A stretch of DNA of 48,798 bases from IMG/VR virus record IMGVR_UViG_3300022542_000629, positions 1 to 48,798 of that record; one strand, 5' to 3'. Positions 1-48,798 of this stretch are shown here, one piece after another; within the stretch, counting starts at the first letter, position 1, and each line of letters begins with the position of its first letter. Origin of the DNA: a virus. The notes beneath the pieces were generated by a model, which did no database searches, had not been told where the DNA came from, and worked only from the letters and a program-made list of their open reading frames with translations. A program made the translations under genes and the position numbers.

Positions 1-141
1 GCCAGCGCCGCCTCGAAGCCGGTGTCGGGCAGGTTGCCCAGGTTGCCTGCGGTTTGGCCGTAATCTGCTTTAATCGAGCGGCCGCCAGGAGCACCAGAGG
101 CTTCCCAATCTATCCCGTCTCCGCCGTGAACTGTTCGGCTA
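1..141. repeat. Terminal overlap copy A (identical to 48658..48798)
   Basis: 141/141 identity between the first and last 141 nt, checked base by base. Implies a circular or terminally redundant unit of 48657 bp. Confidence 0.95.
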
Positions 142-4095: not shown

Positions 4096-4383
4096 TTAGT
4101 TGCCCTCGTTGCCTATCTCTGGCTCGTTGGGAGTGAGTATATACAGCGGCAGTTTGCACCGCATCCGCAGCCCGATCAGCAACTGCACCACGCGCCCGCT
4201 GGAGACGTGGCTGCGCTCATAGTCTGCGAAGGCTTGCGTTATTGCGCCCGGCGTCCGCTTGCCCGCTGCGTCAGTAATCGGCTCATCGTGCTGCTCTACG
4301 ATTTCGTCGAGCAACGCGACGAGCGGCGTTTCACGCGTCCACGCTGCGCCTCTCAAAACCTCGCGTACTTCATCTAGCGTCAT
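4096..4383 (-). CDS. Hypothetical protein (95 aa from ATG 4383)
   Basis: RBS GGAGGAAAGG 4 nt upstream of ATG 4383. The longer track ORF (to 4497) overlaps the upstream gene. Confidence 0.55.
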   Translation of the reverse strand: MTLDEVREVLRGAAWTRETPLVALLDEIVEQHDEPITDAAGKRTPGAITQAFADYERSHVSSGRVVQLLIGLRMRCKLPLYILTPNEPEIGNEGN

Positions 4384-4558
4384 CGTCCTTTCCTCCTGTT
4401 GTTCTGTAGCAGGCATCATTGCCCTCCATCCTCTCATCATCCCGTGCCCGCTCAGCCTCTGCCGCCAGGCGCTCGGCTTCCTCTTGCTCGCCGGCACGCA
4501 TTGCCTCTACTAATCTAATCCATAGACTTTCGGTATCTTGCTTTTTCCCTTCGTTCAT
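4370..4558 (-). CDS. Hypothetical acidic coiled protein (62 aa)
   Basis: RBS GGAGGAAG. ATGA overlap with the stop of 4555..5040. Confidence 0.5.
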   Translation of the reverse strand: MNEGKKQDTESLWIRLVEAMRAGEQEEAERLAAEAERARDDERMEGNDACYRTTGGKDDDAR

Positions 4559-5040
4559 TGCGCTTCCTCCTTGTTCAGTTGCGGTCCAAGCAGTTCCCAA
4601 ATTCCGCTATTCCGCAGCCAGTACCGCATGCGCCGCAGCGCCTGCGCCTCTACCTGCCGCACGCGCTCGCGGGTTGTGCCTGTCACCGCCGTCACCTCCT
4701 CCAGCGTATACCGTGGCCCCTCCAGCCCGAACCGCCACGTTAGCACCTGCATATCTCGCTCGTTCAGCATAGCCAGGGCCTGCCGTAACAGTACCTCAAC
4801 GCCGTCAATGAGCACCAGGTGCTTGCCAAGTAGCGAGCGCAAAAGCAGCGTCCACGCCTCGACTTGCCAGCCAGGTAGCGTCGGCGGCTCATAGACGTAC
4901 GGCTCATCTTCCGACAACACGCGGCTCAGTGCCCAGCGCACGAACGCGGAGCGGTTGAGGCCGCGCCTGGCAGCGGCTTCGTCTATGCTCGCCAGCAGCC
5001 CGTCGGACACGGGAACGTTGAGATGTCGCCTCATTGTCAT
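4555..5040 (-). CDS. Ribbon-helix-helix (CopG/Arc-like) domain fused to a sigma-70 region 4 domain
   Basis: N-terminal RRHLNVPVSDGLLASIDEAAARRGLNRSAFVRWALSRVL is RHH-like. C-terminal LNERDMQVLTWRFGLEGPRYTLEEVTAVTGTTRERVRQVEAQALRRMR matches a textbook region 4.2 HTH. Confidence 0.7.
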   Translation of the reverse strand: MTMRRHLNVPVSDGLLASIDEAAARRGLNRSAFVRWALSRVLSEDEPYVYEPPTLPGWQVEAWTLLLRSLLGKHLVLIDGVEVLLRQALAMLNERDMQVLTWRFGLEGPRYTLEEVTAVTGTTRERVRQVEAQALRRMRYWLRNSGIWELLGPQLNKEEAQ

Positions 5041-5165
5041 AGGTTCTCCTCTGTCCTATCAGCGTTATCACTCGCCCGGCCTGCCACTACCATGATGCAG
5101 AGCACCAGAATAGCGAGAATGAGGAAGGCAATGGCGGGGCGGCATAGTTGGCTAAGTTGTATCAT
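5037..5165 (-). CDS. Possible 42-aa single-TM peptide
   Basis: Hand translation MIQLSQLCRPAIAFLILAILVLCIMVVAGRASDNADRTEENL. Its stop overlaps ATG 5040 (ATGA) and its start overlaps the end of 5152..5688. Confidence 0.4.
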   Translation of the reverse strand: MIQLSQLCRPAIAFLILAILVLCIMVVAGRASDNADRTEENL

Positions 5166-6895: not shown

Positions 6896-7480
6896 TCATT
6901 TCTCCTTTTCTAATCTTTCCCTAACCGCCACCAGCGCCCATGTCGGCTTGTCGCCCGACACCGGAAACCCGACGACGCTAAAGCCGCCGGTAGCGACGTC
7001 CCAGGCTGTCATCTCGACGGTGGCCTCGACTTTGTCACTGGCATAGTGGCGGCCTTTCATAATGTCAAATTCGCGGCGCAGGCGAGCCGACGACCAGGTG
7101 CCTTTCTTGTCGGTCTTGGCAAATTCCTCGCCCAGTTCTCGCCGCCGGAACTCGTAATCGGTCGCCAGGCGCAGCGCATTGCCAGGATTGTCGGTTTCCA
7201 TCACGGCCTTGTAGAGTGACAGGGGGGCGTCTGGCCGTATGTCCTCATCACTGAATATCTCTGCCATTCGTGCCAATACGTTAACGCTGTGCACCGTTGA
7301 CTGGCCCCACAGGTGTGCCAGCCAGAGGGCCAGGCGCGGGGGAGGGTCTTCATTGCGGTATGCCCGGTCGTGTGTGACGGCAAAGTGAGCCAGTCGCATC
7401 TCGTCTATGAGAACTTCGGTCTTGCTTTCCTTTACCATGATCGCCCAAGCCTCAAAAGTGTCCAGGTCTAGTTCTATCAT
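6896..7480 (-). CDS. Hypothetical protein (194 aa from ATG 7480)
   Basis: RBS GGAGGGAGCA before ATG 7480. The upstream part of the track ORF (to 7654) overlaps two other genes. Confidence 0.55.
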   Translation of the reverse strand: MIELDLDTFEAWAIMVKESKTEVLIDEMRLAHFAVTHDRAYRNEDPPPRLALWLAHLWGQSTVHSVNVLARMAEIFSDEDIRPDAPLSLYKAVMETDNPGNALRLATDYEFRRRELGEEFAKTDKKGTWSSARLRREFDIMKGRHYASDKVEATVEMTAWDVATGGFSVVGFPVSGDKPTWALVAVRERLEKEK

Positions 7481-7834: not shown

Positions 7835-8230
7835 TCACTGAGAGACACGACTGCTATCTTCATTACTCTCTCTTTTTTGCAAGATATGGGTTTTAAGATG
7901 ATGATTCGCGCATAGAATAACGCAGCAACGCATTTCCCTTTTTAGTCGTCTGCGGCTGTAATTTAGCATTAAGCTCACCTTGAAAGTCTCATGGCCATTA
8001 GGGGCATGAAATACTAGCATATCAGGATCACGGACCTCACAGCTAGGCCAACTGCAACCCATAAAACTTTTATAGCGATTGACGAATTTTTGGTTCCAAG
8101 TATAATGCGCTATTTGCTGCATCCTACGCCTTTTTCTATGGATCTTATTATATGCTTTACACTTCTCTTTGTTGGCTCTATAATAGGCTCTTTGGTGTGC
8201 CCTCTTTTCATCTAGGTTTTTGTATGGCAT
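7835..8230 (-). CDS. HNH-family homing endonuclease-like protein (131 aa) in an AT-rich island
   Basis: LVFHAPNGHE...ILCANHHLKTH. RBS AGGAGCATAAG before ATG 8230. The region from about 7860 to 8400 is visibly more AT-rich than its flanks. Confidence 0.5.
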   Translation of the reverse strand: MPYKNLDEKRAHQRAYYRANKEKCKAYNKIHRKRRRMQQIAHYTWNQKFVNRYKSFMGCSWPSCEVRDPDMLVFHAPNGHETFKVSLMLNYSRRRLKREMRCCVILCANHHLKTHILQKRESNEDSSRVSQ

Positions 8231-8325
8231 CTTATGCTCCTGTTCTATACTTATTCTGACTAATCTCATTGGTGCGCGAATTGGGGACATGCCCCCGCCC
8301 GTAGCCTCAGAGATTAGCCAGTATT

Positions 8326-9875: not shown

Positions 9876-9931
9876 CTTTGGCTGGGGCCTCCTTTTGCTT
9901 CTGCGTTTTGGGCCGACACCTATCTGCTAGA

Positions 9932-9960
9932 ATTATAACATAGTTTGTGGCATTTGTCAA
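9932..9960 (-). promoter_or_regulatory. Consensus promoter P2 (TTGACA-N17-TATAAT, with TGn extended -10)
   Basis: Minus strand reads TTGACAAATGCCACAAACTATGTTATAAT. Confidence 0.8.
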
Positions 9961-14514: not shown

Positions 14515-14746
14515 TTCTCTCCTTTAGGGTTTCGAGTAGATGCTCTCTTCATAGCCAGCCCCATTTGCTGACGACCCTGCCCAGTTGCCCGCTAGTCTCT
14601 CCTCTAGCGCCTCCCTGCCCCCGGGCTGTTTGTCTTTGCCGATCCCGCTTCCGGCTTACCAGTTACTTTTCAGCCTGCTGCGACTTACTCCTGTTCGCTT
14701 TCTGCGTTTTCGGTTGTTCAGGTTCTTTGTTTCCTTATCTACTATT

Positions 14747-14775
14747 ATTATACTACATTACTATACCATTGTCAA
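14747..14775 (-). promoter_or_regulatory. Consensus promoter P3 (TTGACA-N17-TATAAT)
   Basis: Minus strand reads TTGACAATGGTATAGTAATGTAGTATAAT, inside a 475-nt non-coding gap. Confidence 0.8.
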
Positions 14776-16818: not shown

Positions 16819-16947
16819 TTTACCTCCATAAAAGACGACTCCCACGAGCCCCGGCGTCTGCATTTGTCAAGAGGCAAACGAGTTTAGGCTGTGGGAGTCA
16901 CGGGCACAAAAAAGCCGCCGTGCTCGCGTGTGCCTCTTGACGGGTTT

Positions 16948-16976
16948 AGTATACCATGAAAGCCTTGAAAAGTCAA
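16948..16976 (-). promoter_or_regulatory. Near-consensus promoter P4 (TTGACT-N17-TATACT, TGn), leftward early promoter
   Basis: Minus strand reads TTGACTTTTCAAGGCTTTCATGGTATACT. Its -35 box lies 11 bp from the -35 of the divergent P5. Confidence 0.7.
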
Positions 16977-16987
16977 TGTCAAACCAC

Positions 16988-17016
16988 TTGACACCAGCCC
17001 GTTTTTTTGCTATAAT
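16988..17016 (+). promoter_or_regulatory. Consensus promoter P5 (TTGACA-N17-TATAAT, TGn), rightward
   Basis: TTGACACCAGCCCGTTTTTTTGCTATAAT, 70 nt upstream of ATG 17086. Confidence 0.8.
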
Positions 17017-17085
17017 GGTGTAGATAGGGGTTCGCTTGTGCTTACGCAAGCGCAAAACTAAAACTACATAGCATGGGAGGTTACG

Positions 17086-17571: not shown

Positions 17572-19203
17572 ATGTCAAAACAGCGCATAGCTATTGTATC
17601 TGTCTCAGTGCTGGCTATTATCGTGGCGCCGGCGATTTTCATCTTCAACATGTCCTTACCTGATGTACCATCTCAGGAATGGTGGGACGACTGCCCACTT
17701 GACCAGATTTGTTCAACTACGGCTCCACAATCTACCTATACGCCCCAGTATACCCACACCCCAGATCCAACGCCTACCTGCCGGCCTACCACCACCTGCC
17801 CGCCCGCTTCTACCGCCCTTCCCACGTCCACGTTGCTTCCCACATCCACGGCGTGGCCGACCCAGCCATACACATCAACCGCCATGCCAGCCCTTACTCC
17901 AACCCCTACGCCGACCGCACCGGCCACGCCTGTCTCTGGTGAAGTGCGCGCCTTCCCCAGCGCAGAGGGCTTTGGAGCAAACTCGATAGGCGGTCATGGC
18001 GGCAGAGTCATCGAGGTGACAAATCTGAACAATAGCGGCCCCGGCAGCCTGCGGGCAGCGATTGAGGCGAACGGACCGCGCATCGTCGTCTTTCGCATCG
18101 GCGGCACAATCGAACTCCAATCAGGTATGAATCTCACCAATCCCTTCATCACCATCGCCGGCCAAACTGCACCCGGCGGCGGCATCACGCTGAAAAACGC
18201 CATAAGCAACAGATATACTCCCATCACAATTTGGACTCACGATGTAATCATACGCTACATCAGGTCTCGGCCTGGTGCTTCTCGCGATCCGGCCAGCGCG
18301 TTGGACGCAATCCAGATGGTTTATGAGAATGCTTACAACATCATCCTCGACCATTGCTCGTTTAGCTGGTCCACCGACGAGGTGGCGTCAACGTGGGGCA
18401 GCGCGCGCGACATCACGATTCAGTGGTGTATCATTGCTGAAGGATTGAACGACAGCACGAACAAAAAAGGACCGCACTCGTGCGGCCTCATCCTTGGCAG
18501 TGACGGCGCGCACAGCATCTCAGTTCATCATAATCTACTGGCTCATCACAGCGATCGAAGCCCGCGCATCAAAACCGGCGGACTCGTCGATTTCGTGAAT
18601 AACGTCATCTATAACCCCGGTGCACAGGCGGGCCTGTTCTCCGCTGGCTCGCTCATCAACTATGTCGGTAACTATGTCGTCGCCGGTGCCGACACCGACA
18701 CCTACGAGGTGAAAGCCTACGCGCCCACCTACGTTCTCGGCAATATCGGCCCGCACCGGCCAACCAACGACCTGCCAGAAAGTTTCATCGTCCGGTCAGA
18801 CCTGCGCTATAACCTGGTAGATACCAGGTTTGACGCCCCTGCCGTCATTACTCAATCCGCACTATTAGCACACGACTACATACTGGCCGACGCCGGTGCC
18901 AACGCTGGCATAGACTGTACTGGTGTATTTTATGAGCGCCGCGACACCGTAGACGCACGCATCGTCAATGACGTAATCAACGGTACCGGCAGCATCATAG
19001 ACGATCCGTCCGAGGTTGGTGGCTGGCCCGCACTGGCGGCAGGCACGCCCTGCACCGACGCTGATCACGACGGCATGCCGGATGAGTGGGAGAACATACA
19101 CGGCTTTGATCCGAACGACGACGCCGACGGTCCTGCCGACACTGATGGGGATGGGTACACCAACATCGAGGAATACCTGAACGGAACAGAGCCGAACGAC
19201 TGA
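17572..19203 (+). CDS. Signal-anchored pectate-lyase-like polysaccharide lyase (PL1-type beta-helix) with a Thr/Pro linker and C-terminal Asp-rich calcium-binding-type repeats
   Basis: N-terminal TM segment IAIVSVSVLAIIVAPAIFIF and a T/P-rich linker. AFPSAEGFGANSIGGHGGRVIEVTNLNNSGPGSLRAAI...ITIAGQTAPGGGITL. C-terminal DADHDGMPDEWE...DTDGDGYTNIEEYLNG. Confidence 0.7.
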   Translation: MSKQRIAIVSVSVLAIIVAPAIFIFNMSLPDVPSQEWWDDCPLDQICSTTAPQSTYTPQYTHTPDPTPTCRPTTTCPPASTALPTSTLLPTSTAWPTQPYTSTAMPALTPTPTPTAPATPVSGEVRAFPSAEGFGANSIGGHGGRVIEVTNLNNSGPGSLRAAIEANGPRIVVFRIGGTIELQSGMNLTNPFITIAGQTAPGGGITLKNAISNRYTPITIWTHDVIIRYIRSRPGASRDPASALDAIQMVYENAYNIILDHCSFSWSTDEVASTWGSARDITIQWCIIAEGLNDSTNKKGPHSCGLILGSDGAHSISVHHNLLAHHSDRSPRIKTGGLVDFVNNVIYNPGAQAGLFSAGSLINYVGNYVVAGADTDTYEVKAYAPTYVLGNIGPHRPTNDLPESFIVRSDLRYNLVDTRFDAPAVITQSALLAHDYILADAGANAGIDCTGVFYERRDTVDARIVNDVINGTGSIIDDPSEVGGWPALAAGTPCTDADHDGMPDEWENIHGFDPNDDADGPADTDGDGYTNIEEYLNGTEPND

Positions 19204-20943: not shown

Positions 20944-21588
20944 TTATGGGACTTCACCGGTTTTTATCCAATGCAACCCTGCCCATCTAAGCCTTCGAGC
21001 TGTGCGCGCCTTGTTTTCTTTTGGTGTTACTGGCTCCATATGCTCTGGATTAACACAAGTAGGATTACAACAAAGATGATCAAGTTCATATCCATTAGGT
21101 ATTTTGTCTATATGCTGTTCATAGAGCCAACGGTGCGCTTGATAATGGATGCTTTTCTTTATTTCACTATCCCAAATAGCCAGTTGTGCCCTGCCCCTGT
21201 TATTGACAGACCGTTGCCAAATCCAGCAACCCGTTTCTTTTTCGACTATCCATTTACGTCCAGAAAGGGCTATGGCATGACCCCGAACATATTTCATTGG
21301 ATACCCTGCCACTACGCCATCTTTGTTGCGAGTATGTGTACATATTGGGGTCTTTTCACCGCAACCACACAGACACAGACCCGATGGATTGGGGTTTTCA
21401 GGCTTTTTCAATCCCCTTTTTTTATGCCAATCAATTTTGCGATCAGCTTTTTTGAGACACTCGCGGCATCTCGCTTTTCGTCTATACGCCTTACGGCCCT
21501 TAGGCAAGCAACCTGATTGATCAAAAGCATCGCGCGGGAGAAGCCGTTTACAATTTTTACAAATAAAATGGGTTTTAAGCGGTGGCAT
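20944..21588 (-). CDS. HNH (HNH_3-type) homing endonuclease with zinc fingers, antisense to the late operon
   Basis: ELDHLCCNPTCVNPEHMEPVTPKENKAR. CKNCK...CRECL. RBS AAGGAGCATT before ATG 21588. AT-rich. Confidence 0.7.
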   Translation of the reverse strand: MPPLKTHFICKNCKRLLPRDAFDQSGCLPKGRKAYRRKARCRECLKKADRKIDWHKKRGLKKPENPNPSGLCLCGCGEKTPICTHTRNKDGVVAGYPMKYVRGHAIALSGRKWIVEKETGCWIWQRSVNNRGRAQLAIWDSEIKKSIHYQAHRWLYEQHIDKIPNGYELDHLCCNPTCVNPEHMEPVTPKENKARTARRLRWAGLHWIKTGEVP

Positions 21589-21644
21589 AATGCTCCTTAG
21601 ATGCGCATTAGTAATGGGTGTTATTGTACCACAGGGAGGGTAGG

Positions 21645-22097
21645 ATGTCAAGGATGTACAGCGCAGTTTTCGAGGAAGTTGCAGTTACAGCAGTACAAGA
21701 CCTGTTTGAAATCGTAGCACCCGCTGACTCCGTGGTCATCATTCACATGTTTGAGGTTAGCCAATCCTCGGATACCGACAGTGAACAGTTAAACCTGCTG
21801 TTCCACCGTGGCAGCACCAGCGGTTCGGGTGGCAGCACCCCAACGCCACGACCGTTAGCCGTAGGAGATGCTGCCTTCGGCGGCACAGTGGAGGCGAATA
21901 ACACCAGTCAAAGCACGGAAGGTGTTCACCTCCACGCGGCGAGTTTCAATGTCTTGAACGGCTACATGTGGATGCCGACACCGGAGGCGCGGATTATCCT
22001 CTCGCCGTCCGGGCGACTCATCATAGAACTACAAACAGCACCAGCCGACTCGTTGACGATGAGCGCTACAGTAGTGTTCGAGGAAATCGGTGGGTAA
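21645..22097 (+). CDS. Hypothetical structural-module protein (150 aa)
   Basis: RBS GGGAGGGTAGG before ATG 21645. ORF track. Confidence 0.55.
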   Translation: MSRMYSAVFEEVAVTAVQDLFEIVAPADSVVIIHMFEVSQSSDTDSEQLNLLFHRGSTSGSGGSTPTPRPLAVGDAAFGGTVEANNTSQSTEGVHLHAASFNVLNGYMWMPTPEARIILSPSGRLIIELQTAPADSLTMSATVVFEEIGG

Positions 22098-38355: not shown

Positions 38356-39327
38356 TTAGCGATTGCCCCACCTGGCAATGTTTCCGGCTTTGCCACCCAA
38401 TGGCGCGATTCGCATCAGATGCTCATAGAATTTGTCACTTTTGAGGTAGCACTCGCGGCATAGTTCGGACTTTTTTGATTTGTTTTTGCGCCCGCAGTTT
38501 GGGCAGACAGTTTTAGGCTTTGGTTTGTTGAACTTTGAAAAGTCGCTCACGGCATGAAGCATTCTATCTTGCTTGACTGGATGATAGAAGTGCCCGCCAA
38601 GGGCACGGAAATCTTCCCGCCGTATGCTAAGGCCATAAAGTTTTTTACCTGATTTTAAGATACTTACTAAGCGTAGATTAGCGTGTCTATTTCCAGCAGA
38701 ATCAAGAAGCGCAGGGAGTTGCAGAATCCATTCTTGGGTGTTGCGAATACGAATACCGCCGTTGGCTTGTACATAGCCATCGCCGTCAATGGCAGCAGAA
38801 ACGAACGCCATTTTATCAGGAAGGCTGGCCTTGAATAGGAAAGCAGGAATGATGGACTTGCCAGAGCATTGCCGATCCATCCAGCGAGCAAAGAGAGTGG
38901 AATAGCAACGGATATGGTAGATTATACCACCAGCCTTAATGTGAATATTGTGCTTTTCATTATCAACACTTCTTTGCACCATTCTTGTCCTTTTGGCTGG
39001 GAGTCCAACATGGGAAAGGCACCTTTCGAGATGGTCAAGTATTTCTGTTATTGTATTGCAAAGGGCAACGCCCCTGGCCGCCTTAGATTTATAGTTGCGA
39101 AGAAGCGTTCCATCCGTGAGAAAGAAGCCGATTATGTACGCCAATTCTGGCGAAGAGCCAGGAAAAGTCCACTGGTGAGTGATACCCTGACCAGGAGACA
39201 GGTCATTGGCTTTTGCTATTCTACCAACGACATATCTGGAGCAATTACATTTTTCAGCAATCTGGCCTTGTGTATATTGGCGCAATTGCAAATATTCAAG
39301 AACTTTCTGGTGATTTACTTTGGGCAT
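38356..39327 (-). CDS. LAGLIDADG homing endonuclease (double motif) with an N-terminal HTH and a C-terminal zinc ribbon, antisense to the tail operon
   Basis: LAYIIGFFLTDGTL and FVSAAIDGDGYV motifs. CPNCG...CRECY. RBS AAGGAGCAAAACA before ATG 39327. AT-rich. Its stop codon abuts the Dit stop with no spacer. Confidence 0.7.
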   Translation of the reverse strand: MPKVNHQKVLEYLQLRQYTQGQIAEKCNCSRYVVGRIAKANDLSPGQGITHQWTFPGSSPELAYIIGFFLTDGTLLRNYKSKAARGVALCNTITEILDHLERCLSHVGLPAKRTRMVQRSVDNEKHNIHIKAGGIIYHIRCYSTLFARWMDRQCSGKSIIPAFLFKASLPDKMAFVSAAIDGDGYVQANGGIRIRNTQEWILQLPALLDSAGNRHANLRLVSILKSGKKLYGLSIRREDFRALGGHFYHPVKQDRMLHAVSDFSKFNKPKPKTVCPNCGRKNKSKKSELCRECYLKSDKFYEHLMRIAPLGGKAGNIARWGNR

Positions 39328-39390
39328 TGTTTTGCTCCTTCTGCTAATATAGAATAGCAGAAGTATACCATATAATAGGAGATATGTCAA

Positions 39391-40458
39391 ATGGCTGAGA
39401 AGGGCCTCCTCTTTACAACCGGTGCGACCGGTGACGGCGCGACCGCTTATACTCAGGCAGAGGTTATCCGCTGGCAGCGGCAATTCTTTGTCGGCGCTGA
39501 CAATGAAGGTGTAGCGAAGGATTATCTCAATGAACTAGCGACGACCGGTACTTCCTCACCGGTGGCAACCAATACGGGCGCGGCCCTCATCTTCGGCTTT
39601 CCCTACTGGAATACCGCCAGCGTTGACACTGCCATCCCTACGCCCTCTGCCAATACGCGTATTGACCGCCTCGTGCTGCGCGCCAATTGGTCAGCGCAGA
39701 CCGTGAGAATAACGCGCATCGCAGGCACAGAGGGCACAGGCAACCCGCCGTCTATCGTGCAAACTGATGGCACGACCTGGGACATCCCGCTTTGCCAGGC
39801 GAGTATCACGACCGGCGGTGTCATCACCGTGACAGATGAACGCGAATTCCTTCACCCGAATATCGCTGTTGATGGAGATATGATTGACGATGACACCATA
39901 GACAGCCAGCACTATACTAATGGCTCAATTGACTTGGCGCATATGTCGGCCAATTCGGTTGATAGTCCGCAATATGTAGACGGCTCAATTGATCTGGCCC
40001 ACATGTCGGCTAACTCGGTTGATAGTGACCAGTACGTAGATAGCTCAATTGACACAGTACACCTTGCCGACGATTCAGTAGATGATACAAAGATAGGCAA
40101 TAGAGTACCGCAATTCTTTCGGCGGCAGGGCGGGAGCGCTACTATCTGGAGCACGGAAGGCACGACGACTTATACGCCGACATTAGTCAGAATGCAAGCA
40201 GGATGTGTCGAATGGACTGGCTCGGCAACTAACGCTGGTTATGTGATAGTAACGTTTCCTACTACCTTTTCCTATGCACCCATAGTCATCCCTACGATCT
40301 ATTCTGCCACCGATACGCAAAATGATATTAGCGTCGCCATCCAGTCTCCAGCGACAAACCAGGTTTATTTGGTATGGGTAGACACCGGCGGCGGGACACA
40401 CACGAGCGTCAAGATCAATTGGCTTGCGGTAGGTCCGTATACTGATCCGCCGCCATAG
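39391..40458 (+). CDS. Tail fibre / receptor-binding-like protein with an internal 20-aa tandem repeat
   Basis: 355 aa. GSIDLAHMSANSVDS(P/D)QYVD x2 plus a partial third copy (60-nt DNA period, 39922..40053). RBS AGGAGA. Confidence 0.55.
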   Translation: MAEKGLLFTTGATGDGATAYTQAEVIRWQRQFFVGADNEGVAKDYLNELATTGTSSPVATNTGAALIFGFPYWNTASVDTAIPTPSANTRIDRLVLRANWSAQTVRITRIAGTEGTGNPPSIVQTDGTTWDIPLCQASITTGGVITVTDEREFLHPNIAVDGDMIDDDTIDSQHYTNGSIDLAHMSANSVDSPQYVDGSIDLAHMSANSVDSDQYVDSSIDTVHLADDSVDDTKIGNRVPQFFRRQGGSATIWSTEGTTTYTPTLVRMQAGCVEWTGSATNAGYVIVTFPTTFSYAPIVIPTIYSATDTQNDISVAIQSPATNQVYLVWVDTGGGTHTSVKINWLAVGPYTDPPP

Positions 40459-47798: not shown

Positions 47799-48798
47799 TC
47801 ACTGCGGCTTTTCCATGCATAAAATCAACTCCCAGTCGATGCGCGGTGCTCCCTTTTTCTCGCATAAAATTCTGAAAAAGCTCTTATACCACTTCTCCAT
47901 GCTTACTTCATCACCGTCCAACGTGATCTGCATAATGTCAGCATTCTTGTTCATCCAGGCGCGATGCTTGCAGACAGTGTGGAAGCCGACAGACTGGCAT
48001 AGCGCCTCCCATTGCCCAGGGAAATCTACCAGCCGCCCCGACCTGACGAACATTTTAAGAACCCATATCGCATGCCCGCCCGGCGCGAGCACCTTATAGA
48101 CCTCCTCCAATATCTGCCTACTTGCGGCCCAGAACGTGGAGCCGGTTTCGTTGCCCATTTGTCCTTCGGTTTGTCCATATTCGTCAGTTTGCCCAGCGAG
48201 TACTGAGCCAACATGTCCAAATTTCTCGCGGTTGGCAGCATTCAAATTATGCGCTACGTCACTGGTTTCCCACGGCGGCGATGATAGGCAAAGTTCCGCC
48301 CTCCCCGTCTCCGCGCCCGCCTCCAGCGCCGCCGCGTGGTCGCCGGTGGGCAGGGCGGCGAGTTGGCCGTCAGACTGCGGGATGTCATAGTCACGCTTGC
48401 ATCGGTTGTATGCCTCATCCTTGTCGTAGGAATGAAAGCCTTTTGTCTCGCCGCCTTTGACGTAAGTGGACTGGAATGGAGGTGAGGACAGGGCCAAGTC
48501 AAAAGAGCCTTCGGGCATCTGCGCCAGTTGACCCGGGCCACTTCCATAACCGTTCATTATGCGCGCCTGTGAATTTGGCCCGGCCTTACCTAGTTTCTCA
48601 ATATCTATTCCAGGCTTGCCCTCACGAATACTGCCAATGTAGGGCGGTGAGCCCAGGGCCAGCGCCGCCTCGAAGCCGGTGTCGGGCAGGTTGCCCAGGT
48701 TGCCTGCGGTTTGGCCGTAATCTGCTTTAATCGAGCGGCCGCCAGGAGCACCAGAGGCTTCCCAATCTATCCCGTCTCCGCCGTGAACTGTTCGGCTA
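47799..48798 (-). CDS. Same methyltransferase, C-terminal part. The last 141 nt duplicate 1..141.
   Basis: The frame of ORF 47799..48557 stays open upstream to the window end (...TGFEAALALGSPPYIGSIREGKPGIDIEKLGKAGPNSQARIMNGY...). 48657 is divisible by 3, so it joins 1..821 in frame, giving 559 aa in total. SPPY at 48639..48650, SPPF at 48474..48485, SPPW at 48270..48281, then VLAPGGHAIWVLK. Confidence 0.8.
   Translation of the reverse strand, partial: SRTVHGGDGIDWEASGAPGGRSIKADYGQTAGNLGNLPDTGFEAALALGSPPYIGSIREGKPGIDIEKLGKAGPNSQARIMNGYGSGPGQLAQMPEGSFDLALSSPPFQSTYVKGGETKGFHSYDKDEAYNRCKRDYDIPQSDGQLAALPTGDHAAALEAGAETGRAELCLSSPPWETSDVAHNLNAANREKFGHVGSVLAGQTDEYGQTEGQMGNETGSTFWAASRQILEEVYKVLAPGGHAIWVLKMFVRSGRLVDFPGQWEALCQSVGFHTVCKHRAWMNKNADIMQITLDGDEVSMEKWYKSFFRILCEKKGAPRIDWELILCMEKPQ
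48658..48798. repeat. Terminal overlap copy B (identical to 1..141)
   Basis: Same as copy A. The identity runs exactly to both window edges. Confidence 0.95.

What the first reader, a model, noticed from the sequence alone, without database searches (positions are those of the whole stretch)
4555..5040. Ribbon-helix-helix domain fused to a lone sigma-70 region 4
The 161-aa product starts with a CopG/Arc-type RHH (RRHLNVPVSDGLLASIDEAAARRGLNRSAFVRWALSRVL). It ends with a textbook sigma region 4.2 HTH (YTLEEVTAVTGTTRERVRQVEAQALRRMR), preceded by LNERDMQVLTWRFGL. Regions 1-3 (-10 recognition and core binding) are missing, so it cannot be a normal sigma factor. Region 4 recognises the -35 hexamer and docks on the beta-flap. 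This same genome carries five perfect TTGACA -35 boxes. A dimeric RHH fused to region 4 could sit on -35 elements as a repressor, or compete with host sigma for the flap. That would be functionally analogous to anti-sigma or appropriation strategies such as T4 AsiA, but built from a sigma fragment. It is translationally coupled (ATGA overlaps) to a 42-aa TM peptide upstream and a 62-aa acidic protein downstream.
Basis: partly seen in the sequence, partly recalled or inferred. Interest (0 to 1): 0.7.

Follow-up and report, generated by a model that had tools for sequence, protein, structure and literature searches.

The report
Phage RHH protein with self-capped sigma-4
A small early protein of an uncultivated phage joins a ribbon-helix-helix dimerisation and DNA-binding domain to a copy of the host sigma factor's -35-reading domain, together with a copy of the RNA polymerase helix that normally holds that domain, so it probably reads promoter DNA without the polymerase.

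Summary
ORF 4555..5040 (-) encodes 161 aa with a CopG-type RHH (Pfam RHH_1, above threshold) and a complete group-1 sigma region 4 (Sigma70_r4, E 1.4e-13; 1.3-2.0 A rmsd to solved SigA domain 4). No sigma region 2/3 is found in the protein or elsewhere in the genome. Both ATGA overlaps are real.

The conserved helix between the two domains (res 57-72, LLLRSLLG; family LLRGLFG) matches the RNAP beta flap-tip helix (E. coli RpoB 901-907 LLRAIFG), which is sigma-4's natural docking partner. Phage relatives without the RHH bridge the similarity. P0163 has 14/19 identities to RpoB 895-913. P0083 has LLRAIFG exactly. Residues 52-161 model as one compact domain (pTM 0.81).

The protein therefore looks like a natural version of the laboratory sigma4-flap-tip chimeras, dimerised by an RHH. 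It fits RNAP-independent reading of -35-like DNA, that is promoter occlusion, or decoy action.

The family is tiny: about 13 members, all in related uncultivated phages. One relative carries two tandem copies with an added alpha-CTD. The composition is well supported. The function is inferred, not shown.

The parts
4555..5040 (-). Whole gene: 161-aa RHH / flap-tip-like helix / sigma region 4 protein (stop codon at 4555-4557)
   Evidence: ORF list and sequence. Pfam. 12 conserved relatives.
5046..5051 (-). Shine-Dalgarno GAGGAG, 5 nt upstream of the ATG at 5040
   Evidence: Read from the sequence.
4906..5028 (-). Ribbon-helix-helix domain (residues 5-45): strand region RHLNVPV, helix A 13-25, turn G27-x-x-x-S31, helix B 30-42
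   Evidence: RHH_1 E 1.8e-5, above the cutoff. RHH families hit 7/10 members and Sigma70_r2 hits 0/10. VapB and CopG-like hits. Helices in the AF2 model. G27 and S31 are conserved.
4873..4905 (-). Pro-rich flexible tether (residues 46-56, EPYVYEPPTLP)
   Evidence: pLDDT below 50 for residues 46-56 in the full-length model.
4825..4872 (-). Beta-flap-tip-helix look-alike (residues 57-72, GWQVEAWTLLLRSLLG). L66, L67, L70 and L71 correspond to RpoB L901, L902, I905 and F906.
   Evidence: L66, L67, R68, L70 and G72 are invariant. E. coli RpoB has LLRAIFG at 901-907. The motif occurs once in 2.24 M background residues, and that hit is RpoB. Bridging relatives are P0083 and P0163 (14/19 identities to RpoB 895-913, E 6e-6). 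The helix has pLDDT 84-94 in a compact domain with pTM 0.81.
4561..4806 (-). Sigma-70 region 4 (4.1 + 4.2 + C-terminal helix; residues 79-160), group-1 (RpoD/SigA) type
   Evidence: Sigma70_r4 E 1.4e-13. RpoD/RpoS C-termini. PDB sequence hits to SigA domain 4. Foldseek rmsd 1.3-2.0 A and 47-53% identity to 1ku3, 1ku7, 1rio and 4g6d.
4621..4677 (-). Recognition helix of the HTH (residues 122-140, TTRERVRQVEAQALRRMRY). R124, E125, R126, R128 and Q129 correspond to sigma70 R584, E585, R586, R588 and Q589.
   Evidence: Alignment to the E. coli sigma70 C-terminus and to Taq SigA region 4.
5037..5165 (-). Upstream 42-aa hydrophobic (single-TM-like) peptide, ATGA-coupled. It is conserved in synteny and fused in frame to the RHH protein in relative L005.
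4370..4558 (-). Downstream 62-aa acidic helical protein, ATGA-coupled, with a conserved EEAERLAAEAE core in relatives. No family match.
9932..9960 (-). Nearest upstream perfect promoter (TTGACA-17-TATAAT with TG), and the likely start of the leftward operon that contains the gene (inferred)
   Evidence: All genes between it and the gene lie on the same strand.
16971..16993 (.). Candidate target only: cluster of -35 hexamers at the divergent promoters (AGTCAA TGTCAA accac TTGACA). Binding was not tested.
   Evidence: The back-to-back layout is kept in relatives L158 (N6) and L159 (N10).

Best explanation
The gene encodes an early regulator of an uncultivated, apparently lytic dsDNA phage, built from three modules. 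(1) An N-terminal ribbon-helix-helix that should make it a dimer and may contact DNA. (2) An amphipathic helix that copies the hydrophobic patch of the RNAP beta flap-tip helix. (3) A complete copy of domain 4 of a primary sigma factor. The flap-tip-like helix packs in cis into the groove that sigma-4 normally uses to sit on the polymerase. The sigma-4 module is thus held in its holoenzyme-like, DNA-reading conformation without RNAP. Two such modules hang from the RHH dimer on about 11-residue flexible tethers. The dimer binds -35-type hexamers (TTGACA-like) on phage and/or host DNA and occludes them from host holoenzyme, so it acts as a repressor or shut-off factor at -35-dependent promoters. 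What is shown: the domain composition, the absence of regions 1-3, conservation, synteny and the flap-tip sequence match. What is strongly inferred: capping in cis. What is inferred: DNA binding to -35-like sites. What is speculative: which promoters are affected, and any roles of the coupled TM peptide and acidic protein as tether or antagonist.
For: - RHH and Sigma70_r4 both score above the curated cutoffs.
- The sigma-4 fold matches solved SigA domain 4, with or without -35 DNA, at 1.3-2.0 A.
- The DNA-contact positions R554, R562, T572, L573, R584, R586 and Q589 are invariant in 13 close members. The two base-reading positions E585 and R588 switch together to S/Q and H in 4 of 13, even between near-identical sequences (P0002 vs P0004). 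That is the pattern expected for a DNA-specificity change.
- The activator-contact positions 593, 600 and 603 vary.
- Flap-tip mimicry: the family-invariant LLR-x-L-F-G lies 30-31 residues before RFGL. RpoB has LLRAIFG at 901-907. The regex occurs only in RpoB among 2.24 M background residues. P0163 has 14/19 identities to RpoB 895-913, E 6e-6, and that is the best-matching place in RpoB. All of these align in register.
- L901, I905 and F906 are published sigma-4 interface residues of the flap-tip helix (PMC10216364).
- Residues 52-161 fold as one domain, with pLDDT 89 and pTM 0.81.
- Engineered sigma4-flap-tip chimeras are used precisely to mimic holoenzyme sigma-4 (PMC10245118).
- The phage runs on consensus sigmaA promoters: five 12/12 sites, and 30 promoter-like sites against 13.8 +/- 3.4 expected in the left arm. 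TTGACA targets therefore exist, including an inverted pair TGTCAA-N5-TTGACA at the divergent promoters.
- Relatives add an alpha-CTD, the other promoter-upstream reader of RNAP.
Against: - No binding data exist.
- I could not inspect model coordinates, so docking of the helix in the flap groove specifically is not verified.
- A 20-column profile of the family helix does not single out RpoB (5.5 bits, E 17). The link rests on the 7-residue core and on the intermediates P0083 and P0163.
- In L006, which has the Q585/H588 variant, the phage promoters are still TTGACA. The target may therefore not be the canonical -35.
- The more distant alpha-CTD paralogs have lost R584 or R588/Q589.
- The spacing of the inverted -35 pair is not conserved: N5, N6 and N10.
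- All strong phage promoters are of one class, so indiscriminate -35 occlusion would also hit the phage itself.
- No repeated RHH-type operator was found.
Confidence: 0.42

Rival explanations
1. Decoy. The free-standing sigma-4/flap-tip unit (plus alpha-CTD in relatives) imitates the surface of holoenzyme that activators, anti-sigma-like factors or other sigma-4-directed proteins recognise. It titrates them away from RNAP. The RHH only dimerises the protein or localises it.
For: The module reproduces the composite sigma-4/FTH surface. RHH-less versions of about 100 aa exist (P0163, P0083), and as monomers these would be weak DNA binders. Fusion to alpha-CTD, the other classical activator target, recurs independently (P0012 and its tandem paralog; L019).
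Against: The activator-contact positions 593, 600 and 603 are the variable ones, while the DNA-contact positions are invariant. The RHH keeps its DNA-binding hallmarks, G27 and S31. No candidate partner has been identified.
Confidence: 0.2
2. RHH-directed operator repressor. Specificity comes from the RHH ribbon binding a phage operator. The sigma-4 module adds non-specific or auxiliary DNA contacts, or higher-order oligomerisation, as in Mnt/Arc-type regulators with extra C-terminal domains.
For: RHH profile hits to CopG, Arc, VapB and HicB-type repressors. The ribbon residues vary between relatives, as expected for differing operators. The gene sits in an early operon.
Against: No repeated operator-like motif was found near the promoters. 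The sigma-4 DNA-contact residues are under tighter conservation than the ribbon. RHH-less family members exist.
Confidence: 0.15
3. RNAP-bound wedge, or sigma appropriation. By reciprocal exchange, the phage sigma-4 sits on the RNAP flap tip and the phage flap-tip-like helix captures host sigma-4. This displaces or re-spaces -35 recognition, as gp39 and AsiA do in outcome. It includes the first reader's idea of competition for the flap.
For: Both interaction surfaces are conserved. Flap-tip helices in engineered chimeras can swap to a neighbouring sigma-4 in crystals (PMC10245118).
Against: The helix is only about 7 residues from sigma-4 helix 1, and the two are predicted to form one compact domain with pTM 0.81. 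That favours binding in cis. An intramolecular partner would out-compete RNAP.
Confidence: 0.1
4. One half of a split sigma factor: the region-4 subunit that works with a separate region-2 subunit, as in SigO-RsoA or T4 gp55/gp33.
For: It is a lone region 4 in a phage.
Against: There is no region 2/3-like ORF in any frame of the complete genome (best E 0.03-0.7, and that match is the gene's own RHH). The apparent RHH/region-2.2 resemblance fails at profile level (HHalign probability 4.7%). The flap groove appears to be capped in cis.
Confidence: 0.03

Closest known systems
Engineered sigma4-beta-flap-tip-helix chimeras (e.g. PDB 3T72, 7KUF, 8CWT, 8D5V, 6IDO)
   Same: One polypeptide carries sigma region 4 and the beta flap-tip helix, so that sigma-4 adopts its holoenzyme state off the polymerase (PMC10245118; PDB hits).
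   Different: Those chimeras are laboratory constructs with the helix at the C-terminus on an artificial linker. Here the arrangement is natural and phage-encoded, the helix is N-terminal and diverged (LLLRSLLG vs LLRAIFG), and an RHH is added.
Domain 4 of primary (group 1) sigma factors, RpoD/SigA
   Same: 47-53% identity and 1.3-2.0 A rmsd. The protein keeps regions 4.1 and 4.2, the C-terminal helix and the TRERxRQ recognition helix.
   Different: There are no regions 1-3, so no core binding through region 2 and no -10 recognition or DNA melting. The tail differs (W148 for R608, Y140-W141 for H600-P601).
Phage and plasmid RHH repressors (Arc, Mnt, CopG) and RHH antitoxins (VapB, HicB)
   Same: N-terminal RHH profile matches, small size and an early-gene location.
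   Different: None of these carries a sigma-derived HTH. No toxin partner is adjacent.
T4 AsiA and Thermus phage P23-45 gp39 (phage factors acting at the sigma-4 / flap / -35 nexus)
   Same: They target the same step of initiation. The likely outcome is the same: loss of -35-dependent transcription. This comparison is from memory plus the papers listed.
   Different: There is no sequence or fold similarity. Those factors bind sigma-4 or the flap on RNAP. This protein is itself made of sigma-4 and a flap-tip copy, and probably acts on DNA or as a decoy.
LuxR/GerE/NarL-type dimeric HTH regulators
   Same: The HTH fold is sigma-4-like and is used as a dimeric DNA reader on paired half-sites (from memory).
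   Different: The sequence is clearly Sigma70_r4, not GerE. Dimerisation would come from an RHH.
Auto-annotated 'Sigma70_r4 domain containing protein' and 'RNA polymerase alpha' mini-proteins of uncultured phages (BFVD/UniProt)
   Same: These are stand-alone sigma-4 or alpha-CTD proteins of 80-170 aa in phage metagenomes.
   Different: They are uncharacterised, and most lack both the RHH and the flap-tip motif.

Membership tests
Ribbon-helix-helix (CopG/Arc/MetJ) superfamily | Profile match above the curated threshold | tested here: met
   RHH_1 24.9 bits against a cutoff of 20.5. RHH_1 hits 7/10 members. RHH_5, RHH_3, HicB_lk, TacA1 and NikA-like also hit.
Ribbon-helix-helix (CopG/Arc/MetJ) superfamily | Strand-helix-turn(G-x-x-x-S/T/N)-helix topology | tested here: inconclusive
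   Helices 13-25 and 30-42 are predicted, and G27 and S31 are conserved. The ribbon strand is not formed in the monomer model, as expected for a strand that only pairs in the dimer.
Ribbon-helix-helix (CopG/Arc/MetJ) superfamily | Obligate dimer that inserts the ribbon into the major groove | not testable with these tools
   No multimer or DNA modelling, and no experiment, was available.
Sigma-70 family sigma factor | Region 2 (core binding, -10 recognition and melting) | tested here: not met
   No Sigma70_r2/r3 hit at E<=10, and 0/10 members hit. HHalign of the N-terminus against a region-2 alignment gives probability 4.7%. None is found elsewhere in the genome.
Sigma-70 family sigma factor | Region 4 (4.1 + 4.2 HTH) | tested here: met
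   Sigma70_r4 E 1.4e-13, structure match and alignment.
Group-1 sigma domain 4 as a -35 reader | Conserved -35 contact residues R584, E585, R586, R588, Q589 | tested here: met
   The window protein has R124, E125, R126, R128 and Q129. In 4 of 13 relatives E585/R588 become S or Q and H. Actual DNA binding was not tested.
Natural sigma-4 / beta-flap-tip module | Flap-tip core L-L-R-x-[ILV]-[FL]-G at a fixed distance before region 4.1 | tested here: met
   The bridging sequence P0163 has 14/19 identities to RpoB 895-913.
Natural sigma-4 / beta-flap-tip module | The helix occupies the flap-binding groove of sigma-4 | tested here: inconclusive
   A compact single-domain model (pTM 0.81; helix pLDDT 84-94) supports this. 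Coordinates could not be inspected or superposed on 8CWT or 7KUF.
LuxR/GerE HTH | GerE/LuxR profile match | tested here: not met
   No such family was reported at E<=10 for the protein or at E<=1 for 10 members.
Type II antitoxin (VapB/HicB-like RHH) | Adjacent cognate toxin gene | tested here: not met
   The neighbours have no Pfam, PHROG or PADLOC match. The RHH is fused to sigma-4 instead of to a toxin-binding tail.
MZA defence system sigma (MzaA) | Full-length MzaA architecture | tested here: not met
   Only the last 60-65 residues of the model (its sigma-4) match, at 59 bits against a cutoff of 800 and 37.7 bits in PADLOC.
AsiA / gp39 / P7-type RNAP-binding phage factors | Sequence or fold similarity | tested here: not met
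   Foldseek against PDB and BFVD returns only sigma-4 or RHH proteins.

The most novel reading that the evidence does not exclude
These phages rebuild the upstream promoter-recognition face of bacterial RNA polymerase as a free-standing protein. The pieces are the beta flap tip plus sigma domain 4, with alpha-CTD added in relatives. The protein would be used as an RNAP-surface mimic in one of three ways: as a competitor for -35/UP DNA, as a decoy for sigma-4- and alpha-CTD-directed regulators, or as a wedge that swaps partners with host sigma-4 and the flap. That would be a host-takeover principle with no described natural counterpart.
Probability: 0.3. Interest if true: 0.88.

Novelty: new variant of a known kind. 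Interest (0 to 1): 0.72.

Why it matters
The sigma-4 / flap-tip / -35 junction is the control point that many activators, anti-sigmas and phage takeover proteins act on. All known phage factors there (AsiA, gp33, gp39, P7, gp67) are unrelated proteins that bind the host parts. Here a phage appears to have copied the host parts themselves, sigma-4 from rpoD and the flap-tip helix from rpoB, and in relatives alpha-CTD from rpoA. It has joined them to an RHH. This is the same design that structural biologists invented in order to study sigma-4 off the polymerase.

If the protein binds -35 DNA on its own, it gives three things:
- a natural, soluble, dimeric -35 reader;
- a new route to host shut-off or temporal control;
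- a tool for probing promoters.

The natural E585/R588 variants would be a ready-made series of specificity changes.

Tried and rejected
- **N-terminus as a degenerate sigma region 2.2-2.3.** A pairwise resemblance exists (GLLASIDEAAARRGLNRSAFVRW vs [24 protein letters not shown]; phmmer E 0.03-0.8). It fails at family level (HHalign probability 4.7%; Sigma70_r2 hits 0/10 members against RHH in 7/10).
- **Split sigma.** There is no region-2 ORF anywhere in the genome.
- **Truncated or frameshifted full sigma.** The upstream ORFs are a TM peptide and a zinc-ribbon-like protein, and length and architecture are conserved in relatives.
- **Specific link to the MZA defence system.** Only a generic sigma-4 match was found.
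- **Genome-wide TTGACA enrichment as evidence of many binding sites.** The count is 46 against 21.5 +/- 4.4 in dinucleotide shuffles. It is not enriched under an order-4 Markov model, which expects 52.6. Not informative.
- **Candidate operators.** The palindrome TTGCAC-N4-GTGCAA occurs once. AGATAGG after the -10 element is enriched (11 against 4.0 expected) but is mostly not at promoters. Repeat scans of the regulatory region gave nothing convincing.
- **Full 20-column profile of the family helix against RpoB.** Not significant. Only the core motif and the intermediates carry the link.
- **Short-segment searches of the PDB.** Nothing useful.
- **Cultured relatives.** No DNA or capsid-protein match in 50,697 phage records. 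No full-length homologue in INPHARED or in 185,579 GTDB genomes, so the host is unknown.
- **tRNA and Rfam scans.** Nothing found.
- **Literature.** No paper on a natural RHH-sigma4 or flap-tip-sigma4 protein in the held library.
Full report
**1. The observation**

- Pfam gives RHH_1 at residues 9-39 (E 1.8e-5, 24.9 bits; cutoff 20.5). It gives Sigma70_r4 at residues 88-139 (E 1.4e-13, 50.5 bits; cutoff 24.1).
- PHROGs gives 'RNA polymerase sigma factor' for residues 82-149 and several CopG-like repressor families for residues 7-46.
- NCBIfam matches only the C-terminal 60-70 residues of RpoD, RpoS, RpoH and MzaA models, plus a VapB-type RHH at the N-terminus.
- Both ATGA overlaps are in the sequence. 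One is at 5037-5040 with a 42-aa hydrophobic peptide. The other is at 4555-4558 with a 62-aa acidic protein. A GAGGAG ribosome-binding site precedes the start.

**2. It is a real, conserved gene in a small phage clade**

- A search of 5.8 billion proteins found nine other full-length proteins of 158-163 aa at 54-65% identity, all from metagenomes.
- A profile search of 1.84 billion cluster representatives found only three hits below 1e-30. These are the protein's own cluster, a fragment (P0011) and a 232-aa relative (P0012). Everything else is ordinary sigma factors or sigma-4-only proteins.
- IMG/VR adds three phage contigs.
- 185,579 GTDB genomes contain no full-length member, only housekeeping sigma C-termini.
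- INPHARED has none.
- Gene order is conserved around the gene in relatives: zinc-ribbon-like protein, about 43-aa TM peptide, this gene, then an acidic protein with the core EEAERLAAEAE.

**3. The genome**

- The window has a 141-bp direct terminal repeat, so it is a complete phage genome.
- The left arm (minus strand) carries an MT-A70 methylase, an AAA_24 ATPase, an HNH endonuclease, a replication initiator and a DnaC-like loader. RusA lies at the right end. The right arm is structural.
- No integrase, phage RNAP or second sigma fragment was found in the parts scanned.
- There is no similarity to any cultured phage.
- The phage uses textbook sigmaA promoters. Five sites are perfect 12/12 TTGACA-N16/17-TATAAT, with -35 hexamers starting at 14775(-), 9960(-), 3773(-), 16988(+) and 28696(+). 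Several more are 10-11/12, and most have an extended -10 TG. Relatives do the same.
- The gene lies in the leftward operon downstream of the 9960 promoter.

**4. Structure**

- The full-length AF2 model has mean pLDDT 78. It shows RHH helices 13-25 and 30-42, a disordered stretch at 46-56, a confident helix at 58-71, and then the four to five helices of sigma-4.
- Foldseek places the C-terminal part on solved SigA domain 4, alone or with -35 DNA, lambda cI, phage G1 gp67 or WhiB1. The rmsd is 1.3-2.0 A at 47-53% identity.
- Sequence search of the PDB agrees.
- Aligned to E. coli sigma70, R124, E125, R126, R128 and Q129 correspond to R584, E585, R586, R588 and Q589, the -35 recognition residues. 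Their role is from memory of Campbell 2002 and the classical suppressor genetics.

**5.

The segment between the two domains is the most conserved part of the family. W58, A62, T64, L66, L67, R68, L70 and G72 are invariant. Its core, LLR-[GS]-L-F-G, is the core of the RNAP beta flap-tip helix. E. coli RpoB, translated from NC_000913, reads PEEKLLRAIFGEK with LLRAIFG at 901-907.

The hydrophobic positions i, i+1, i+4 and i+5 (L66, L67, L70, F/L71) correspond to RpoB L901, L902, I905 and F906. L901, I905 and F906 are listed as the sigma-4 interface of the flap-tip helix in a holoenzyme structure paper (PMC10216364). That paper cites Geszvain 2004 for the hydrophobic patch.

The match is short, so I tested it several ways.
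- (a) The regex LLR[GSA][ILV]FG occurs once in 2.24 million residues of six-frame background. That one hit is RpoB.
- (b) In every family member the motif sits 30-31 residues before RFGL of region 4.1. In P0012 the distance is 32 and in P0083 it is 35.
- (c) RHH-less phage relatives bridge the gap. P0083 (117 aa) has LLRAIFG exactly. P0163 (101 aa, on a 47-kb phage-like contig) starts VTPEVKLLGAIFGEKLSKV. By BLASTP this has 14/19 identities to RpoB 895-913, E 6e-6, and that is the best-matching place in the 1342-aa protein.
- (d) MAFFT puts RpoB, P0163, P0083, the window family and P0012 in one register.
- (e) Residues 52-161 modelled alone give pLDDT 89.2 and pTM 0.81. The N-terminal helix has pLDDT 84-94, so the region models as one compact domain rather than a floppy appendage.

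Two caveats apply. A full 20-column profile of the family helix does not single out RpoB. I also could not inspect coordinates to confirm that the helix lies in the flap groove.

**6. What this implies**

[quoted passage not shown] Such chimeras appear among the PDB hits. The phage protein looks like a natural version of that construct, hung on an RHH.

If the groove is filled in cis, the module neither needs the polymerase flap nor is free to bind it. It favours a self-contained sigma-4 that acts on DNA or on sigma-4-directed proteins.

Conservation supports DNA.
- The backbone and base contacts R554, R562, T572, L573, R584, R586 and Q589 are invariant in 13 close members.
- The activator-contact positions 593, 600 and 603 vary.
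- E585 and R588 switch together to S/Q and H in four members, even between otherwise near-identical sequences.
- R588H is, from memory (Siegele 1989), a classical altered-specificity allele for the -35 hexamer.
- GST-dimerised region 4 binds -35 DNA (Dombroski 1992, from memory). An RHH-dimerised, capped sigma-4 is therefore a plausible stand-alone -35 reader.

Candidate sites exist. These are the consensus -35 boxes of the phage's own promoters, and notably the inverted pair TGTCAA-accac-TTGACA plus a tandem TTGACT at the divergent promoters, 16971-16993.

**7. Points against the simple -35-occlusion story**

- The spacing of the inverted pair is N5, N6 and N10 in three relatives.
- Phage L006 carries the Q/H variant yet still uses TTGACA promoters.
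- All strong promoters of this phage are of one class, so indiscriminate occlusion would also silence the phage.
- No RHH-type operator was found.

For these reasons I give the DNA-reader/occluder model only about 0.4. I keep three rivals: a decoy model, an RHH-operator model and an RNAP 'wedge' model.

**8. Relatives widen the picture**

- P0012 (232 aa) is RHH plus flap-tip-like helix plus Sigma70_r4 plus RNA_pol_A_CTD (alpha-CTD E 3e-11).
- On its 2.2-kb contig, the gene just upstream of P0012 is a second copy of the same four-module architecture, with a different recognition helix.
- An unrelated viral contig (L019) encodes a sigma-4 region followed by an alpha-CTD-like C-terminus without an RHH (read by eye, not profile-tested).
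- Small sigma-4-only and alpha-CTD-only proteins are present in phage structure databases, and I found no study that characterises them.

Phages thus repeatedly assemble fragments of the RNAP promoter-recognition surface into small proteins.

**9. Comparison with known systems and novelty**

- It is not a sigma factor, because region 2 is absent.
- It is not an antitoxin, because there is no toxin gene.
- It is not LuxR-type.
- It is not related to AsiA, gp39 or P7.

Its parts belong to known families (RHH; Sigma70_r4). The combination, and above all the built-in flap-tip helix, is not described in any paper I could find. I file it as a new variant of a known kind, a phage DNA-binding regulator. 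There is a real chance (about 0.3) that it represents a new takeover principle, an RNAP-surface mimic.

Noticed in passing
L162:6001-6306 (P0163) and L163:730-1083 (P0083): These are RHH-less natural flap-tip-helix + sigma-4 mini-proteins (101 and 117 aa). P0163 lies on a 47-kb phage-like contig that also carries RusA, DUF5131 and an N6_N4 methylase. P0083 is known only from short metagenome contigs (at most 2.8 kb) with no informative neighbours. P0163's N-terminus has 14/19 identities to E. coli RpoB 895-913.
   Followed up: partly
L160:3-836 and L160:838-1536: Two tandem paralogous genes each encode RHH + flap-tip-like helix + sigma region 4 + RNAP alpha-CTD. Their recognition helices differ (SAPRVRQ vs TRMRIIR).
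   Followed up: partly
L019 (IMG/VR contig 3300029822_000193), ORF covering 7163-7321: A 215-aa phage protein has a sigma region 4-like segment, a coiled-coil-like stretch and an alpha-CTD-like C-terminus. There is no RHH and no flap-tip motif. The architecture was read by eye from the sequence and was not profile-tested.
   Followed up: no
L005:7869-8462: In this relative the about 43-aa TM peptide ORF runs in frame into the RHH-sigma4 ORF, giving 197 aa. This is either a natural fusion, which would hint at membrane tethering, or an assembly indel.
   Followed up: partly
window 1-141 and 48658-48798: An exact 141-bp direct terminal repeat. The window is a complete phage genome with no relatives among 50,697 deposited phage records.
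   Followed up: yes
window 16948-17016: Back-to-back divergent consensus promoters whose -35 hexamers form TGTCAA-N5-TTGACA, with an extra tandem TTGACT. The same back-to-back layout occurs in relatives L158 (N6) and L159 (N10).
   Followed up: partly
window 16855-16945 (-); L158:2716-2806; L159:5896-5986: The 5' leader of the leftward early transcript is highly conserved. It has an 11-13 bp stem, GUCAAGAGGCA / UGCCUCUUGAC, that encloses about 46 nt. There is no covariation among the three sequences, so RNA structure and a DNA site cannot be told apart.
   Followed up: partly
window 14730-14747, 9915-9932, 17017-17028; also L001:4476, L006:1933, L158:4445 (start of the -35 hexamer): A shared box, (T)AGnAGATAGG, lies 2-4 nt downstream of the -10 element of several early promoters in this phage and its relatives. 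AGATAGG occurs 11 times against 4.0 +/- 2.0 expected, but most copies are not at promoters.
   Followed up: partly
window 7835-8290 (-), 20944-21651 (-), 38356-39483 (-): There are two HNH endonuclease genes. A third ORF has LAGLIDADG-like motifs by eye (not profile-tested). The last two lie on the opposite strand inside the structural arm, each behind its own near-consensus promoter (-35 hexamers starting at 21651 and 39390), like free-standing homing endonucleases.
   Followed up: no
window 17572-19203 (+): A 543-aa protein has an N-terminal TM segment, a Pro/Thr-rich linker and a bacterial TSP3-repeat C-terminus (weak Pfam hit). It is the first large gene of the rightward arm. The function was not pursued.
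   Followed up: no
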